From assembly GCF_003704095.1 (NCBI RefSeq), contig NW_020843644.1:248001-312000 (forward strand): a DNA stretch of 64,000 nt, in the 5' to 3' direction. A program made the position numbers. Source of the stretch: Pocillopora damicornis. Lineage: Eukaryota. Position 1 is the stretch's first letter, and every line of letters begins with the position of its first letter. Below are positions 27,001-45,000 of this stretch, piece after piece.

Positions 27001-30000
27001 TGTTTCTTTACATGCCTTAAAACCATCTTAATCGCCCACTATAATCGAGAAGCTATTTCTAAGACTATTGCATATAACTTTAACCGAATGAAACGCAAAG
27101 TCAGAATATTTCTATTCAGCTGTGGTGGAAAGTCACTTTCCGAAGAAATCTGTTAAACACCTTTATATTCGATATTTTCTAGCATTACTTAAGTGCATCG
27201 ACTCATTTCAAGTTTCAACTTCCTGACTTTGTATGCTCATGCATGAGAGGGGAGGGGAGAGGGACTTACACGTACGTGATCTCAGAGTAAGGTGAAACTT
27301 ATTTCTCTACTAATCCTATTCTTTTGATAAAATAATGAGCTTTTCCTAAAAATAAGAGTATTTGAATTCAACGATTCCTAGAATAGACAATTTAACTCAT
27401 TTTTCAGCATGTGACAGGCAAAGCTGGTTCCAATTCCGTACCAGTTGTCGAACCTGTCATGACAGATTTAAATCTTATCAAAATTTAATACTCTTTCCTT
27501 TACCAAGAAATTGAACATCAGCGCTTGGAGCAGTTTTTAAATAATTTCCTTTCAGCGTGAATGGCGATTCGTTGATGCAACAGCTGTGTTCCGTTTGTGA
27601 CACACCGACAAAATTACGGACGCGTGACGTAATAAACAGTGATCTGAATATTTCGTGTTGCGTGATTTGAATATTCCGTTCTCGACTGGAGGCTTTGTGG
27701 TTGCAGATATTTAACAGGTGAAAAGAATTTTCGCTTTGTGAGACGTCAGTAGTTTTATTCAACTCAATTTGATTCAAGAGTAAGACATTTTATTCCTGAA
27801 ATTCTAAAGGTTGACCGCAGCCTTTGCAAGAAACAATTTTTTACGCGAAAGATACCCTCCTTTCTAAACACAAACAATTGCTTCTGGGGTTGAGTTTTTT
27901 TTTAACTAGGTTCATGAAAAACATTAACATAACACACTTGCATTAAAATTTTATTTACAGTTAAATCCAGGAATGACTCCATGTAAAATAAAAAAATAAA
28001 AATAAAAAACCCCCTAAATTTGTTCACGTTCTTTGTTTGAGTTTTGACAGAGGTTGCATTACAATTCGTACTAAAATTAGACTAAGATCTGATTGTCAAC
28101 ATTGATCTTCTTTTTTACTATTGACGCAAAATAATATACCACTGAACAGAAGCAGTGTTCCAAATTGAAGCACCCCGAGTTTGGATCGAGTTTGCATTTT
28201 AGAAAGCAACATAATCGTACTGATCATGTCTATCAAGTACCCCTAGCTTTCACTGACTCTATCTTCTAGATCATTGAGAATCGAATAAATATATTTCACG
28301 GCTGCCCTTCGAGCGCATTTTACATTCTCTTGTCCGTCTGTTTCGATTAAGTCTAGACCAAGTAAGCAACGAGTTAGATATTCTTCTAAATAAAGGAATT
28401 CTTTGTCTTTCCTTGTTCCTTTAAAGGCCACCACCCTGGAAATCAGTTCTGTGGCTCGCACCAATTCATTCTTGATTGCCGCAAGTTTCTGTTCGTTTGC
28501 AGTTTGTATTTCGGGTGGTGAGTCATCTTGATTATCCACTACCGGTCGACTTTCCTTTGCACTTTCGTCCTCTGTGGTCACTGGAATACACCTGTGTTCG
28601 CCTGAGGTCTTTGCAGTCTCGCCCGCGGTTTGTTCTTCATTATCTGTAATCAGTGCATTTGTGGCATCACAATGATCTTCCCTCCAAGCCTCCTCGCTAG
28701 AGTCGTTGGTCGTCACAGTTTCTTCCTGGGGTTGATACTCAATAGGTATATTCCATTCATCTTGGGTTTTCTTTGGCCGTGATGGACTCGTTTGCTTTGT
28801 GTCCCCTTTCGGTTTCGTACCCTCGTGCCTCGAAAAGGGGTTTTCCCTTGCATTGTGCTGCAATGGGACTCTCGTATCATCCAACATTTGTTTATCCTTT
28901 GGAGCCCGTCTCGTTTTCTTCCTTGAGGAAACTTTTTGGGGGTTGGCAGGTGGAAAGTAAACTGCTGGGTTTTCCCAAAAGGGAAACGGTCTTTCTCCGT
29001 GAAAATCCCCCGAGCTCATGAAGAGGTTTCCTTCGTTATGACCACGTCGAGGTGGATAGCCAGTTGTCCATGGATCTCCGTAAATTATGTCACCGTACAT
29101 CGTCAATATAGTAAACTTATTGCAAACGTTGATTCTTCTTCTGCTCTCAAATCTCTGAATGACCAAGCAAAAGAAGTCCTACTTTTATAGAGAGTTTTAT
29201 ATATTTCTAGAGAATGATAGAGCGTACTGGAACGATTTGTAACTACCTATTTTTAATCATATTCGAGTCATTCTCCAATAACGAGTAGAACCTACGGGAA
29301 AACCCTGGGAGATTTTTAAATTCGTCTCCAGGGTAGGGTAGAGTTGTTTTTTTTGATGAGTCATGAGTAAACTTTTTTATTTTAAACTGCAACGTTTTCC
29401 TCCTCTTTACCCTAAATAAGGATGAAGGAAGAGCTCGTAGTGTTCACAGTTTGTGTGTATGCGATAAAAGGACGAGAAGGTGAAAAACTTGTCAAGTGTC
29501 TATGTACACCTACCCCTCCCCTATCAGGAATTCTATGAAGACTATTCCAGAACATTCGAGGTGAATTTGCCACATAGTATAAAGAGCACCACGTTGACGT
29601 AGGTGACTCAAATCAGTAAAGTGTTTGAGTTGAAAGGACCGAGTCCTTGTTGAAATAATGGGAAAAGACTACTACAAGATCCTAGGCGTCTCAGAAACAG
29701 CTACGGACGATGAGATCAAGAAGGCCTACCGAAAACTTGCTCTAAAATGGCACCCGGACAAGAACAAGAGCCCAGGAGCCGAGGACAAATTCAAAGAAAT
29801 TTCCGAAGCATACGATGTCCTCAGTGACAAAGGAAAAAAAGAAACCTTCGACAAATACGGAGAAGAAGGACTTCATGGTGTTCCTAACGGTGGAACCGAC
29901 AGTAACATGCGTTTTCAAGGCGGACCAGGTTTCGCAAGAACATTCGTCTTCACGAATGGAAATGCACGCGAAACTTTTGCTCGAGCATTTGAGAATGACG

Positions 30001-42000: not shown

Positions 42001-45000
42001 ATAGGTTATAATCACAAAGGAGCGACTCTCAAATAATACAATTCACGAGAACAATGAAATTAGGTCCACCTCTAACTAACAATTCAGTCACGACTGACTT
42101 GAACTCACTGTAAACGTTAAAATGTCTCCACTGAAATCTCCCGTCTCAAAGCACCACACAAATCGCTCGATGATGACTTTAAAGAAACCACAGTAGCTCT
42201 CTTTAGCTCTCTGAGAATAGCTTAACTGCTCCTAACAGTTACTTCCTGACGATAAGAACATCTACAACTGCCATAGGAACCCAAGCCCTTATATACAATT
42301 ATGAAATATTCTAGAACATTCGGCCGTTCGCAAACGTAACAACACCACTATTCTGGTGGCATTACATCATCCGAAAAAAATGTTCGAGGGCATTCCATGG
42401 CGTGACTCAGGAACACGAAGTGTATTATTTACATTGTGTTACAAGACAATCGAAGACAAAGTTAGATCATTGAAAATGAAAGCAGTTACAAGTCTCAGAA
42501 TAGGATTATCCTGGTCGAGGCAGATCATGTTATCACGGACTCACGATTTATAGCGCCGGGAATGCTCTAATTCATATTTTGTTGATGTTGCAAATCACGA
42601 TACGGATGTTTTGGAAGTCGACGATCAAGACTCCCACTCCAGTGTAAAATGAATAACGGGTGGTGATCGGTTACATGATTTTTCATTCAACACAGTTGGC
42701 ACTGAATACATTAAAAACATCTTAATAAATCCTTGATCCCAGCAAGTCGGTCGGTATTGACAACATCTCTCTTGCCTACTACGCCTATCTGCGCCGAGCG
42801 TTACAGATGAAGTGACTTATCTAATCAGTCATTTCATCACGACTCAGTCAATACTCACTGAGTGGAAGAGCAGTATTATCAGTCCTGTACATAAAAAGGG
42901 CAGCAAATCTGAAAAATCCATTTTTCGCCCCGTTTCCATCTTGACTACGTTTTCAAAAGTCTTTGAGAATGCTATTTTTGATCAGATGTATGCTAAAATA
43001 GCTCCTTTGCTTTCTCAAAATCTCTCTGGATTGTTAAAGAGTCATTCCTACTCTACTGCTACATTAAAGATGACAGAGGACTAACGTGCTAGCCTGGATG
43101 CTAAAGATTCTGTTGCAGTTGTCACAGTGGACCTCAGCAAAGCATTTGATAGTGTCAATCATAACCTCTTTTTTGCTAAACTAAAAGCCTACGGCTTTTA
43201 AACTACTGTAACCGATTTAATTGGAGAGTAATCGAAGGAACGACGCCAAAGGGTAACCACTGAGGGTATTTGTTCTGAATGGAAATGTGTCATGGCAGTT
43301 GTCCCCTAGGGATCTCTGCTTGGTCCATTGTTATTCAGCATATACATAAACGATGTCAAATACAGTATCCCGTACATGACACTAAGACTATATGACGATG
43401 ACACCACTGGATATAATTCTGATACTTAATTCATCTTTAGCTCTACAGTTCATGGTAAATAACAAATTGTCCTCGCTGTCTACATGGTTCGAGCAAAATT
43501 TACTCTCAATTAATAACACCAAGTCACAGGCTATGATCCCTGGCTCGGCTACACACAAGTGGGACCTTTTCATCAACGGCATGAAGGTCGAAGTGAAGTC
43601 TACTCTCAAGATTCTAGGAGTAACGTTGGATAGGAAGATTTCTAACAATGAAACGTACTTCGGCAAAGTTACATAGAAATTATTACAAGACCTCAGCTCC
43701 TAAAACGAATATCTGTCTTTGTAATGCAGTTTTAGCCTGTCTTAGTAAGGAGCAGAGCGATAGACTCGAAGATGCTAACTATTATATCTTAAGAACTCTA
43801 TTAAGGACAAAGAATGAAAGCCACGTAACCTTACTGAGTATCGTTGGCGTGAATACTTTGAAACATCGTCGTTATTACCAAGCTCTGGTGTTGACTTATA
43901 AATGTCTTAACACAATAGGTCCAAAGTACATTGCCGATTTTCTGAATTTGAGGGACATATGTTATAAACAAAGTGGTAAGGGAAGTAACTTGATACAGCC
44001 TCATTTTAACACTGAGTGGATGCATAAATCCTCTTCACTTATAGCTTGCAAGCTGTGGAATAAGCTACCGTTACTCAGACAATCTTAAAGAGTTTCAAAA
44101 GGCTTTTCATAAGTTCAACTTAGGATCCTTATATTAGGTTATTTGGTCATTATTATTTTTCTCTAATCTATTTTATTCCTTTTTATAGTTTGTGACTTTT
44201 CTAAATGTTCATGTCAAATTTTATCTCTTTCAAAAATAACAGATTGTTATATAATGATGTATTTTTAATGTAATAGGTATTACATCTTAGATAGTTAAAG
44301 TTTCTCACTTAGGTTTTTGTAATTTTTTTTCCACACGTGCACGTTCGAACGAGTTTCTGTTAACTCTTAGGTGTTTACGTGTTTAAATAAATTACTTACT
44401 TACTTATTTACTACCTTTACAATTACAGCTAAGCCTACAGCAATTTTTTCCCCAGGCGGCCTATTTCTACTCTCAACTTCAGCAAAACACAAACCCCTCT
44501 AGCTGCCAAATTAATCACCTTAAGAACAATAATGATAACAGTAGTAATGGTATCATTAATAATAATTCATTAATAATAATAACCATAACAATTGTTTAAT
44601 GGCAAAATTAAGAACAATATTAACGACAATATCAATGATAAACAACAATTCACCGAAGTAGAGGTGGGTTAAAGTTGTAAATATCCACCGCTGGCGAGCG
44701 ACACTGAGTTGAATAATTATTTTAATGTATACTGAAACAGTGAGATAAGTTAGCACAAAACCTTGCTATCCACTGTTTATGTATATACTTATAATAACCA
44801 TGACATTTATGAAGGTAACAATCCTAAATTGCAGTCATGAATAATTATTGGATGATAACTTTAGATAAAACCTGGACTTCTGATACATTTTGATACAAAT
44901 TAAAATTCAGGTTATCCCATGTCCATGAAGATCAACTTCTTGGCGAACTCATAGTTCATTTTTCGGACAATCTTAATCGAAGCTTTCTGCACCATCTTTC

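What the first reader, a model, noticed from the sequence alone, without database searches (positions are those of the whole stretch)
29544..42322. Strong local excess of perfect heat-shock elements
Seen: seven perfect three-unit HSEs in ~13 kb (29544, 35465, 35899, 36476, 37302, 37623, 42308), plus near-perfect ones (~35216-35228, ~38681-38693). I noticed only one elsewhere in the window (3800-3814). A rough estimate assuming ~62% AT gives about one such site per 64 kb by chance. Inference: the block acts as an HSF-responsive domain.
Basis: partly seen in the sequence, partly recalled or inferred. Interest (0 to 1): 0.65.

Follow-up and report, generated by a model that had tools for sequence, protein, structure and literature searches.

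The report
Coral heat-shock co-chaperone gene cluster
The dense run of heat-shock elements is real and marks the promoters and one intron of a small cluster of Hsp70 helper genes (two Hsp40-type and two BAG-type) in a stony coral genome, which is what heat-shock genes are expected to look like.

Summary
The window holds 9 perfect three-unit HSEs against about 1.5 expected (0 of 100 shuffles reach 9). Seven lie in 29.5-42.3 kb, where about 0.4 are expected (0 of 300 simulations reach 7). The sites are independent and not copies of a repeat.

The block is a heat-shock co-chaperone gene cluster in a stony coral. The nearest named relatives are Desmophyllum and Oculina. It holds two old, mirror-image, head-to-head pairs of a BAG-domain gene and a class-B DnaJ (Hsp40) gene.
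- Perfect HSEs sit 101-186 bp upstream of three of the four start codons. Two promoters have an HSE next to a TATA box.
- Three more perfect HSEs lie in the single 1.9-kb intron of one DnaJB gene.
- One HSE+TATA promoter at 42.3 kb points into 3.7 kb with no recognisable ORF.

HSF binding and heat induction remain untested. This is ordinary heat-shock gene biology and a new member of a known kind. The paired BAG/DnaJB layout, the intronic HSE triplet and the orphan promoter are modestly new details.

The parts
28243..29100 (-). BAG(-): single-exon ORF of 285 aa with a C-terminal BAG domain (Hsp70 nucleotide-exchange factor type)
   Evidence: ORF. Pfam BAG 48.1 bits against a cut-off of 23.4. 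PDB BAG5/BAG3/BAG4 at E 1e-10 to 8e-9. Only 6 relatives found, all carrying Pfam BAG.
29182..29203 (-). Two overlapping TATA-like boxes (TATAAAAG, TATATAAA) about 80-100 bp upstream of the BAG(-) ATG
   Evidence: The adjacent degenerate 6-unit HSE-like array at 29205-29232 has 5 mismatches. This is not distinctive, because 30 such arrays occur in the window.
29545..29557 (.). Perfect HSE in the 557-bp BAG(-)/DnaJB(+) intergenic region. It extends to 4 units with 1 mismatch from 29540. It lies 101 bp upstream of the DnaJB(+) ATG and 445 bp upstream of the BAG(-) ATG.
29578..29584 (+). TATAAAG box 20 bp downstream of the HSE and 74 bp upstream of the DnaJB(+) ATG
   Evidence: Sequence read.
29658..30695 (+). 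DnaJB(+): intronless ORF of 345 aa, a class-B J-protein (J domain, G/F-rich linker, DnaJ_C, no zinc finger)
   Evidence: Pfam DnaJ 99.7 bits and DnaJ_C 134.6 bits, with no other family. PDB DNAJB13 full length 261 bits; DNAJB1 C-terminal domain 199 bits and J domain 114 bits. 79% identical to 'DnaJ sub B member 5' of Desmophyllum pertusum.
34232..34914 (-). DnaJB(-) exon 2 (G/F linker end and DnaJ_C domain, stop included)
   Evidence: Pfam DnaJ_C 133.9 bits. 49% identical to DnaJB(+). Acceptor AG at 34916-34915 after a pyrimidine tract.
34915..36804 (-). The single phase-1 intron of DnaJB(-), 1890 bp. It carries three perfect HSEs and three one-mismatch HSEs and is a probable intronic heat-shock enhancer.
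   Evidence: Splice sites read. HSE positions. About 0.06 perfect sites are expected in 1.9 kb at the rate found.
35216..35228 (.). Near-perfect HSE (1 mismatch) in the intron
35466..35478 (.). Perfect HSE in the intron
35900..35912 (.). Perfect HSE in the intron (4 units with 1 mismatch). A TATATAT stretch lies about 15-20 bp away on the minus strand.
36477..36489 (.). Perfect HSE in the intron
36805..37117 (-). DnaJB(-) exon 1 (J domain with HPD, start of the G/F region). The donor is CAG|GTAGGT.
   Evidence: Pfam DnaJ 94 bits. 60% identical to DnaJB(+). Donor read.
37303..37315 (.). Perfect HSE 186 bp upstream of the DnaJB(-) ATG, in the 688-bp DnaJB(-)/BAG(+) intergenic region
37624..37636 (.). 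Perfect HSE 170 bp upstream of the BAG(+) ATG
37806..38555 (+). BAG(+): single-exon ORF of 249 aa, with a conserved Cys-containing N-terminal stretch, a disordered middle and a C-terminal BAG-type three-helix bundle
   Evidence: Pfam BAG 21.6 bits, below the 23.4 cut-off. 21 of 23 aligned relatives hit Pfam BAG at E<=0.01. PDB BAG5 at 3.7e-5. AlphaFold helices 157-186, 193-212 and 219-242 at pLDDT 82-90. The Foldseek top 10 are all BAG domains. 29% identical to BAG(-) over the BAG domain, E 2e-9.
38676..38693 (.). Two overlapping one-mismatch HSEs about 120 bp after the BAG(+) stop codon
42288..42321 (-). Orphan heat-shock promoter: a perfect HSE at 42309-42321 (5 units with 2 mismatches from 42299) and TATATAAG at 42295-42288, 13 bp away. 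It points to lower coordinates.
42109..42265 (-). Putative non-coding first exon downstream of the orphan promoter. It holds only a 9-codon upstream ORF and ends at a GTGAGT donor (GT at 42108-42107). The start coordinate is an estimate.
   Evidence: Sequence read. This is inference with no transcript evidence.
38556..42108 (-). Target region of the orphan promoter, with no recognisable gene. It contains a second promoter-like spot: a near-HSE at 41789-41801, three GGGGAGGGG at 41753-41773, a CCAAT near 41705 and TATAAAAG at 41644-41637.
   Evidence: Among the ORFs lying in this stretch, those of at least 70 aa and the 66 ORFs of 28-69 aa gave no Pfam match at or above a curated cut-off. The longest ORF, 133 aa, is reached by 61 of 500 shuffles. 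Motifs.

Best explanation
The HSE-rich block is a heat-shock co-chaperone gene cluster of a stony coral. It holds two diverged, mirror-image, head-to-head gene pairs. Each pair combines a BAG-domain protein (an Hsp70 nucleotide-exchange factor) with a class-B J-domain protein (DNAJB1/4/5-like Hsp40, which stimulates Hsp70 ATP hydrolysis and delivers clients). The order is BAG(-) | DnaJB(+) ... DnaJB(-) | BAG(+).

Inferred mechanism: under heat or other proteotoxic stress, trimeric HSF1 binds the nGAAnnTTCnnGAAn elements. These lie in the two short shared intergenic regions (557 and 688 bp) and in the 1.9-kb intron of DnaJB(-). HSF1 would then co-induce both regulators of the Hsp70 cycle from divergent promoters. 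The intronic triplet would act as an enhancer, as described for the first intron of human HSP90AB1.

A fifth HSE, with its own TATA box at 42.3 kb, drives a minus-strand transcript of unknown nature.

Shown here: motif excess, motif positions, gene identities, paralogy and splice structure. Inferred: HSF binding, heat induction, enhancer function of the intron, and co-regulation within pairs.
For: Motif excess.

Sites are not repeat-derived.

None of the 7 sites is in coding sequence. Four lie in promoter regions, 101, 186 and 170 bp upstream of three ATGs and 13-20 bp from TATA boxes at 29578 and 42295. Three lie in the DnaJB(-) intron.

The seven share the extended form GAAnnTTCyrGAA. Four contain TTCTAGAA, which occurs only 7 times in the window, 5 of them in the cluster.

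Gene identities: Pfam, PDB sequence matches, relatives, and fold.

Paralogy of the two pairs: 60% and 49% identity for the DnaJB parts and 29% for the BAG domain.

Linkage in other corals:
- In Desmophyllum pertusum, the closest relatives of BAG(+) and DnaJB(+) are KAJ7391401.1 and KAJ7391403.1, on a contig of the same length, 2,220,729 bp.
- In Oculina patagonica, the relatives of DnaJB(+) and BAG(-) both sit on a contig of 38,537,115 bp.

Literature (passages read):
- In two corals, genes with more predicted HSF1 sites in the 500 bp upstream are more strongly heat-induced (bioRxiv 10.64898/2026.04.01.714264).
- DNAJB1 is among the few genes more than two-fold down with dominant-negative HSF1 in human cells (PMC2981734).
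Against: There are no expression, chromatin or binding data for this locus. A motif match is not occupancy.

BAG(-) has no perfect HSE close to its own TATA box. The nearest is 445 bp from its ATG, and the degenerate array beside its TATA box is no rarer than 30 similar arrays in the window.

The DnaJB(-) and BAG(+) promoters have no clear TATA box.

In the human dominant-negative HSF1 table, BAG3 was not decreased (ratio 1.31; PMC2981734). BAG genes are therefore not always HSF1-dependent at basal level.

The gene adjacency in D. pertusum is inferred from accession numbers and contig length, not from coordinates.

The coral DnaJ shown to be heat-induced in PMC4824894 is a DnaJ C3, not a class-B gene.
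Confidence: 0.8

Rival explanations
1. The motif cluster is a chance or compositional effect, or the by-product of a repeated element that happens to contain an HSE-like palindrome.
For: The HSE is short and AT-rich in a window of about 37% G+C. The two sites outside the block (3801, 56260) fit the chance expectation of about 1.2-1.5.
Against: 0 of 100 whole-window shuffles and 0 of 300 region simulations (at each of three Markov orders) reach the observed counts. The scan statistic gives 0.008. The flanks are unrelated, and no direct, inverted or dispersed repeat joins the sites.
Confidence: 0.02
2. The sites are real protein-binding elements, but the genes are not heat-shock genes in practice. 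The HSEs would serve constitutive or developmental HSF activity, or another factor, and the cluster would not respond to heat.
For: HSF binds many non-heat-shock genes in Drosophila (title and abstract of PMC3021535, seen only in the listing). Some Nematostella HSP genes with or without HSEs do not follow the simple rule (bioRxiv 10.1101/2025.10.15.682611).
Against: Perfect multi-unit HSEs beside TATA boxes, in front of DNAJB-type and BAG-type genes, are the textbook heat-inducible arrangement. In corals the number of promoter HSF1 sites tracks induction.
Confidence: 0.1
3. The HSE+TATA promoter at 42.3 kb is a distal alternative promoter of DnaJB(-). Its non-coding first exon would splice over about 5 kb, with BAG(+) nested in that intron, to an acceptor just upstream of the ATG at 37117.
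For: There is a good GTGAGT donor about 155 nt downstream of the predicted start and no ORF beyond chance in the 3.7 kb that follow. AG dinucleotides after a T-rich stretch lie directly upstream of the DnaJB(-) ATG, and the proximal DnaJB(-) promoter lacks a TATA box.
Against: There is no transcript evidence. The proximal HSE at 37303 already provides a promoter. A second promoter-like spot at 41.64 kb suggests an independent transcription unit.
Confidence: 0.2
4. The three intronic HSEs are not an enhancer of DnaJB(-). They would be the promoter(s) of a nested or alternative transcript inside the intron.
For: A TATATAT stretch lies about 15-20 bp from HSE 35900 on the minus strand. The intron holds a 132-codon plus-strand ORF that only 8 of 500 shuffles reach.
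Against: That ORF has no Pfam family. Among 1.84 billion representatives it matched only 3 proteins: two near-identical ORF calls (98% and 90% identity) and one 1650-aa repeat protein at 30% that matches through a short repeated motif. The exon lengths of DnaJB(-) already give a complete class-B protein of about 331 aa.
Confidence: 0.15

Closest known systems
Canonical animal heat-shock promoters (hsp70, DNAJB1/Hsp40): HSEs of three or more inverted nGAAn units near a TATA box, bound by trimeric HSF1
   Same: Perfect 3-unit HSEs, extending to 4-5 units with 1-2 mismatches, lie 13-20 bp upstream of TATA boxes at 29.58 kb and 42.29 kb. Others lie 170-186 bp upstream of start codons. The genes served are Hsp70 co-chaperones.
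   Different: No Hsp70, Hsp90 or small-HSP gene is in the window. Two of the promoters lack a clear TATA box. Binding and induction are untested.
Caenorhabditis hsp16 loci: oppositely oriented gene pairs with short shared intergenic regions, multiplied by duplication of pairs (bioRxiv 10.1101/2025.10.13.682214, passages)
   Same: The genes form head-to-head pairs with a short intergenic region (557 and 688 bp here, 200-400 bp there) that carries the heat-shock elements. The pair was duplicated as a unit, giving a mirror-image arrangement.
   Different: There the two genes of a pair are paralogues of one family (small HSPs). Here each pair joins two unrelated families that act on the same partner, Hsp70. 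The duplication is old (29-60% identity) and the pairs lie 3.5 kb apart tail to tail.
Human HSP90AB1 (Hsp90 beta): functional HSEs in the first intron (PMC4980810, passages); also HSF1 binding in PMAIP1 introns (PMC7308270, abstract in the listing)
   Same: Several typical HSEs lie within about 1.3 kb inside an intron of a chaperone-system gene (3 perfect and 3 one-mismatch sites in 1.9 kb here).
   Different: The gene family differs. Here the intron interrupts the coding region (phase 1) rather than following a non-coding exon. Function is untested.
Vertebrate BAG3/BAG4/BAG5-type 'short' BAG domains
   Same: The best sequence and fold matches of both BAG proteins are the BAG3, BAG4 and BAG5 domains. 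That vertebrate BAG3 is stress-inducible is recalled, not from a call.
   Different: No WW domain or other Pfam domain was found, so neither is filed as a BAG3 orthologue. An Ile-Pro-Ile tripeptide in BAG(-) resembles the sHSP-binding IPV motifs of BAG3, but this is a recalled lead only. The family evolves fast: only 6 and 26 relatives were found.

Membership tests
Heat-shock element (HSF binding site) | At least three contiguous inverted nGAAn units in 5-bp register | tested here: met
   Seven exact matches in 29.5-42.3 kb and nine in the window. Three of them extend to 4 units with 1 mismatch.
Heat-shock element (HSF binding site) | Occurrence above background | tested here: met
   0 of 100 shuffles and 0 of 300 simulations at each of three Markov orders reach the observed counts. 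Scan statistic 0.008. Only this 64-kb window served as background; genome-wide background was not available.
Heat-shock element (HSF binding site) | Occupancy by HSF trimers and heat-dependent activation of the linked gene | not testable with these tools
   Needs ChIP, CUT&Tag, ATAC and RNA-seq with and without heat.
Heat-shock promoter | HSE within a few hundred bp upstream of the start site, usually with a TATA box | tested here: met
   Met for DnaJB(+) (HSE 29545, TATAAAG 29578) and the orphan promoter (HSE 42309, TATATAAG 42295-42288). For DnaJB(-) and BAG(+) an HSE is present without a clear TATA box. BAG(-) has a TATA box, but its nearest perfect HSE is about 350 bp beyond it.
Class B J-domain protein (DNAJB1/4/5, Sis1 type) | N-terminal J domain with the HPD motif | tested here: met
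   Pfam DnaJ 99.7 and 94 bits. HPD is visible in both translations.
Class B J-domain protein (DNAJB1/4/5, Sis1 type) | G/F-rich linker, a C-terminal DnaJ_C substrate-binding domain, and no CxxCxGxG zinc-finger domain | tested here: met
   Pfam DnaJ_C 134.6 and 133.9 bits, with no zinc-finger family reported at E<=0.01. Gly/Phe-rich stretches are visible after the J domains. For DnaJB(-) the two exons were tested separately. The spliced protein was not joined.
Class B J-domain protein (DNAJB1/4/5, Sis1 type) | Stimulation of Hsp70 ATPase and co-chaperone activity | not testable with these tools
   Biochemical assay needed.
BAG family (Hsp70 nucleotide-exchange factors) | BAG domain recognised by the family profile | tested here: met
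   BAG(-): 48.1 bits against a cut-off of 23.4. BAG(+) alone scores 21.6 bits, below the cut-off. However, 21 of 23 aligned relatives match at E<=0.01, PDB BAG domains match at 3.7e-5 and 2.4e-5, and BAG(+) aligns to BAG(-) at E 2e-9.
BAG family (Hsp70 nucleotide-exchange factors) | Antiparallel three-helix bundle fold | tested here: met
   BAG(+) model: helices 157-186, 193-212 and 219-242 at pLDDT 82-90. The Foldseek PDB top 10 are all BAG domains, with target TM-scores of 0.45-0.86; five of them have rmsd 1.6-2.1 A over 77-81 columns. BAG(-) was not modelled.
BAG family (Hsp70 nucleotide-exchange factors) | Binding to the Hsp70 nucleotide-binding domain | not tested
   No complex prediction was run, and no Hsp70 gene lies in the window.
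BAG3 orthologue | WW domain plus IPV motifs and a PxxP region in front of the BAG domain | tested here: not met
   No WW or other Pfam domain in either protein. Neither is filed as BAG3.

The most novel reading that the evidence does not exclude
The orphan HSE+TATA promoter at 42.3 kb makes a heat-inducible non-coding RNA, or a tiny unannotated gene, that runs convergently toward BAG(+). Together with the intronic HSE triplet it would turn the 13-kb block into one HSF1-nucleated regulatory hub. That hub would co-induce, in fixed proportion, the two opposing regulators of the Hsp70 cycle (J-protein and nucleotide-exchange factor). Such a module, conserved across stony corals, would be a candidate locus for differences in thermal tolerance.
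Probability: 0.2. Interest if true: 0.55.

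Novelty: new member of a known kind. Interest (0 to 1): 0.3.

Why it matters
Heat-induced bleaching is the main threat to reef corals, and HSF1 dependence is being linked to differences in coral heat tolerance (bioRxiv 10.64898/2026.04.01.714264). This locus packs seven perfect HSEs around four Hsp70 co-chaperone genes. It is therefore a likely top HSF1 target and a compact, testable model for three questions: how corals co-regulate the J-protein and exchange-factor arms of the Hsp70 cycle, how intronic HSEs act, and whether an unannotated heat-inducible transcript exists. In itself it confirms textbook heat-shock gene architecture rather than revealing a new principle.

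Tried and rejected
**Repeat origin of the sites.** Flanks were compared. The repeat finder and TRF on 27-45 kb and self-BLASTN of the window found nothing that links the sites.

**A hidden gene behind the 42.3-kb promoter.**
- Among the ORFs lying in 38.6-42.3 kb, those of at least 70 aa (part of the 117 scanned) and the 66 ORFs of 28-69 aa gave no Pfam match at or above a curated cut-off. There were only 6 weak matches, at E 0.009-0.06.
- ATG ORFs were listed.
- The longest ORF is within chance: 61 of 500 shuffles reach it.
- Rfam at gathering threshold and ARAGORN found nothing in the whole window.

**A nested gene in the DnaJB(-) intron.** The 125-aa ORF was searched against 1.84 billion representatives and gave 3 hits, judged uninformative.

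**A TATA-proximal HSE for BAG(-).** The degenerate 6-unit array is not distinctive, because 30 such arrays occur in the window.

**Orthologues of DnaJB(-).** None closer than 54-66% identity was found among the 165 proteins fetched by then.

**Other calls.**
- The bacterial sigma-70 and terminator scan does not apply to an animal genome and is not used.
It was replaced by Markov simulations.
- One search failed on a term that was too long and was re-sent.

**Literature.** Searches for a described BAG/DnaJB head-to-head arrangement found none. The Aiptasia HSF1 search found nothing relevant.

**Not attempted.** No complex prediction was run. The spliced DnaJB(-) protein was never joined; its exons were handled one by one.

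Full report

Yes. The exact pattern GAAnnTTCnnGAA, or its inverse, occurs 9 times in the window: at 3801, 29545, 35466, 35900, 36477, 37303, 37624, 42309 and 56260. Dinucleotide-preserving shuffles give a mean of 1.5 and 1.3, with a largest value of 5, and 0 of 100 reach 9.

So are both near-perfect ones, each with one mismatch, and the outside site near 3800.

For the region itself, Markov simulations trained on it expect 0.37 (order 1), 0.41 (order 3) and 0.98 (order 5) sites. In each case 0 of 300 simulations reach 7.

The borders were chosen after seeing the sites, so I also computed a scan statistic. With 9 sites placed uniformly, at least 7 fall in some 12.8-kb span with probability 0.008. 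At least 5 fall in some 2.17-kb span with probability 0.0006.

Of the 48 sites with at most one mismatch, 22 lie in 28-44 kb. The two perfect sites outside the block fit the chance expectation.

The flanks of the sites are unrelated. No direct, inverted, tandem or dispersed repeat connects them. No N run lies in the block.

The seven share the extended form GAAnnTTCyrGAA. Four carry TTCTAGAA, an octamer present only 7 times in the window, 5 of them in the cluster.

**2. What is there?**

The window comes from an animal, not from a human. Named relatives of its proteins are from stony corals:
- Desmophyllum pertusum, 69% and 79% identity
- Oculina patagonica, 79% and 47%
- Montipora foliosa, 72-73%
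- Nematostella, 60%

The block holds four genes.
- **BAG(-), 28243-29100.** Pfam BAG scores 48.1 bits. PDB matches are BAG5, BAG3 and BAG4 at about 1e-10.
- **DnaJB(+), 29658-30695.** It is intronless. It has a J domain and DnaJ_C with no zinc finger, so it is class B. Its best solved relatives are DNAJB13 and DNAJB1.
- **DnaJB(-).** It has two exons, 37117-36805 and 34914-34232. A phase-1 intron of 1890 bp separates them, with a CAG|GTAGGT donor and a pyrimidine-rich acceptor.
- **BAG(+), 37806-38555.** Alone it scores just under the Pfam cut-off (21.6 against 23.4 bits).
  - 21 of 23 aligned relatives match BAG.
  - PDB BAG domains match at 2e-5 to 4e-5.
  - Its model has a confident C-terminal three-helix bundle.
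  - The ten best structural matches of that bundle are all BAG domains.

The exons of DnaJB(-) were searched one by one.

The two DnaJB genes are 60% (J domain) and 49% (C-terminal part) identical. The two BAG domains are 29% identical. The layout BAG(-)|DnaJB(+) ... DnaJB(-)|BAG(+) is therefore an old inverted duplication of a head-to-head pair.

**3. Where the HSEs sit.**

None of the seven is in coding sequence.
- **29545.** It lies in the 557-bp region between BAG(-) and DnaJB(+). It is 20 bp upstream of a TATAAAG box, 101 bp upstream of the DnaJB(+) ATG, and 445 bp from the BAG(-) ATG.
- **37303 and 37624.** They lie in the 688-bp region between DnaJB(-) and BAG(+), 186 and 170 bp upstream of the respective ATGs.
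- **35466, 35900 and 36477.** With one-mismatch sites at 35216, 35333 and 36524, they lie in the DnaJB(-) intron. About 0.06 perfect sites would be expected there at the rate.
- **42309.** It is 13 bp from a TATATAAG box on the minus strand. Downstream lie about 155 nt with only a 9-codon ORF, then a GTGAGT donor.

The following 3.7 kb, down to the BAG(+) 3' end, has no Pfam domain match at or above a curated cut-off in any ORF of at least 28 aa. Its longest ORF (133 aa) is reached by 61 of 500 shuffles. It has no Rfam family and no tRNA.

That stretch also holds a second promoter-like spot near 41.64-41.80 kb, with a near-HSE, three GGGGAGGGG, a CCAAT and a TATAAAAG.

**4. How it most likely works.**

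HSF1 trimers bind inverted nGAAn arrays and activate heat-shock genes. This is established knowledge and is restated for cnidarians in bioRxiv 10.1101/2025.10.15.682611. In two corals, genes with more predicted HSF1 sites in the 500 bp upstream are more strongly heat-induced (bioRxiv 10.64898/2026.04.01.714264, passages).

The simplest reading is that each short intergenic region is a divergent heat-shock promoter. It would co-induce a J-protein and a nucleotide-exchange factor, the two opposing regulators of the Hsp70 ATPase cycle.

The intronic triplet would add enhancer strength to DnaJB(-) and possibly to BAG(+). This is as described for the first-intron HSEs of human HSP90AB1 (PMC4980810).

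These steps are inferred. Nothing here measures binding or expression.

The 42.3-kb promoter has three possible readings:
- an independent heat-inducible RNA, which I consider most likely;
- a distal first exon of DnaJB(-), which is possible because AG acceptors lie just upstream of its ATG;
- a relic.

**5. Conservation.**

In D. pertusum the closest relatives of BAG(+) and DnaJB(+) carry accessions KAJ7391401.1 and KAJ7391403.1. Both are reported on a contig of 2,220,729 bp. In O. patagonica the relatives of DnaJB(+) and BAG(-) are both on a contig of 38,537,115 bp.

This points to a conserved cluster, but it is inferred from accession order and contig length only. I could not see coordinates or the orthologous non-coding DNA, because no animal genome collection was open. 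Whether the HSEs themselves are conserved remains unchecked.

One small hint exists. An ORF call from a close relative (P0167, 90% identical over 81 residues) spans the translation of HSE 35900 unchanged. At that distance this says little.

**6. Comparison with what is known.**

The architecture matches canonical heat-shock promoters. The paired, duplicated, divergent layout resembles the Caenorhabditis hsp16 loci (bioRxiv 10.1101/2025.10.13.682214). Here, however, each pair joins two unrelated families that act on one partner.

Intronic HSEs have precedents in HSP90AB1 and PMAIP1.

My searches found no paper describing BAG/DnaJB head-to-head pairs. Supplements, which may list these genes among coral HSF1 targets, were closed.

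Neither BAG protein is filed as BAG3, because no WW domain was found.

**7. Verdict.**

The finding is explained by an ordinary, if neatly organised, heat-shock co-chaperone gene cluster. It is a new member of a known kind, of moderate to low interest overall. Two open details are worth a transcript-level look: the intronic HSE triplet and the orphan promoter.

Noticed in passing
window 38556-42108 (minus strand), especially 41637-41801: A second promoter-like spot lies inside the ORF-less stretch: a one-mismatch HSE (41789-41801), three GGGGAGGGG (41753-41773), a CCAAT near 41705 and TATAAAAG (41644-41637). Several CCAAT/ATTGG boxes also lie at about 40880-41010.
   Followed up: partly
window-wide; e.g. 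29513-29521, 39540-39548, 41753-41773, 27249-27257, 59023-59031: GGGGAGGGG with at most one mismatch occurs 29 times against 2.5 expected (0 of 100 shuffles reach it). One copy lies 24 bp from HSE 29545. Thirteen of the 29 lie on the minus strand of 39.1-41.8 kb. The flanks are not a shared repeat. Meaning unknown.
   Followed up: partly
window 25016-25882 (+): A 288-aa coiled-coil ORF matches the CC2-LZ (NEMO/optineurin-type ubiquitin-binding) domain at 30.3 bits, below the cut-off of 35.3. It lies 2.4 kb from the cluster. A one-mismatch HSE lies at 24685, and a 6-unit array with 4 mismatches at 25680-25707 lies inside the ORF.
   Followed up: no
window 3801-3823: The outside HSE extends to 5 units with 2 mismatches. 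No recognisable gene was found in 1-9 kb, so its target, if any, is unknown.
   Followed up: partly
window 37806-38015 (+), residues 1-70 of BAG(+): The N-terminal stretch of BAG(+) is strongly conserved among 23 coral relatives, with many invariant residues including three cysteines. It has no Pfam family and is modelled at low confidence.
   Followed up: partly
window 9426-13008 (+); 53383-54114 (-); 55946-58304 (+): The neighbouring genes are a TMEM181/Wntless-like multi-exon gene, a POU-homeodomain gene, and an ADH_N_2/ADH_zinc_N (prostaglandin-reductase-like) gene. An exon of the last one holds the chance HSE at 56260.
   Followed up: no
window 43386-44085 (+): Two overlapping ORFs have no Pfam match. 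From recall only, their sequence resembles the C-terminal tail of a non-LTR retrotransposon reverse transcriptase. This would be a probable transposon remnant just beyond the orphan promoter.
   Followed up: no
window 63134-63407; 46157-46180: A tandem array with a period of about 17 bp lies at 63134-63407 (self-BLASTN). A (TA)n microsatellite lies at 46157-46180.
   Followed up: no
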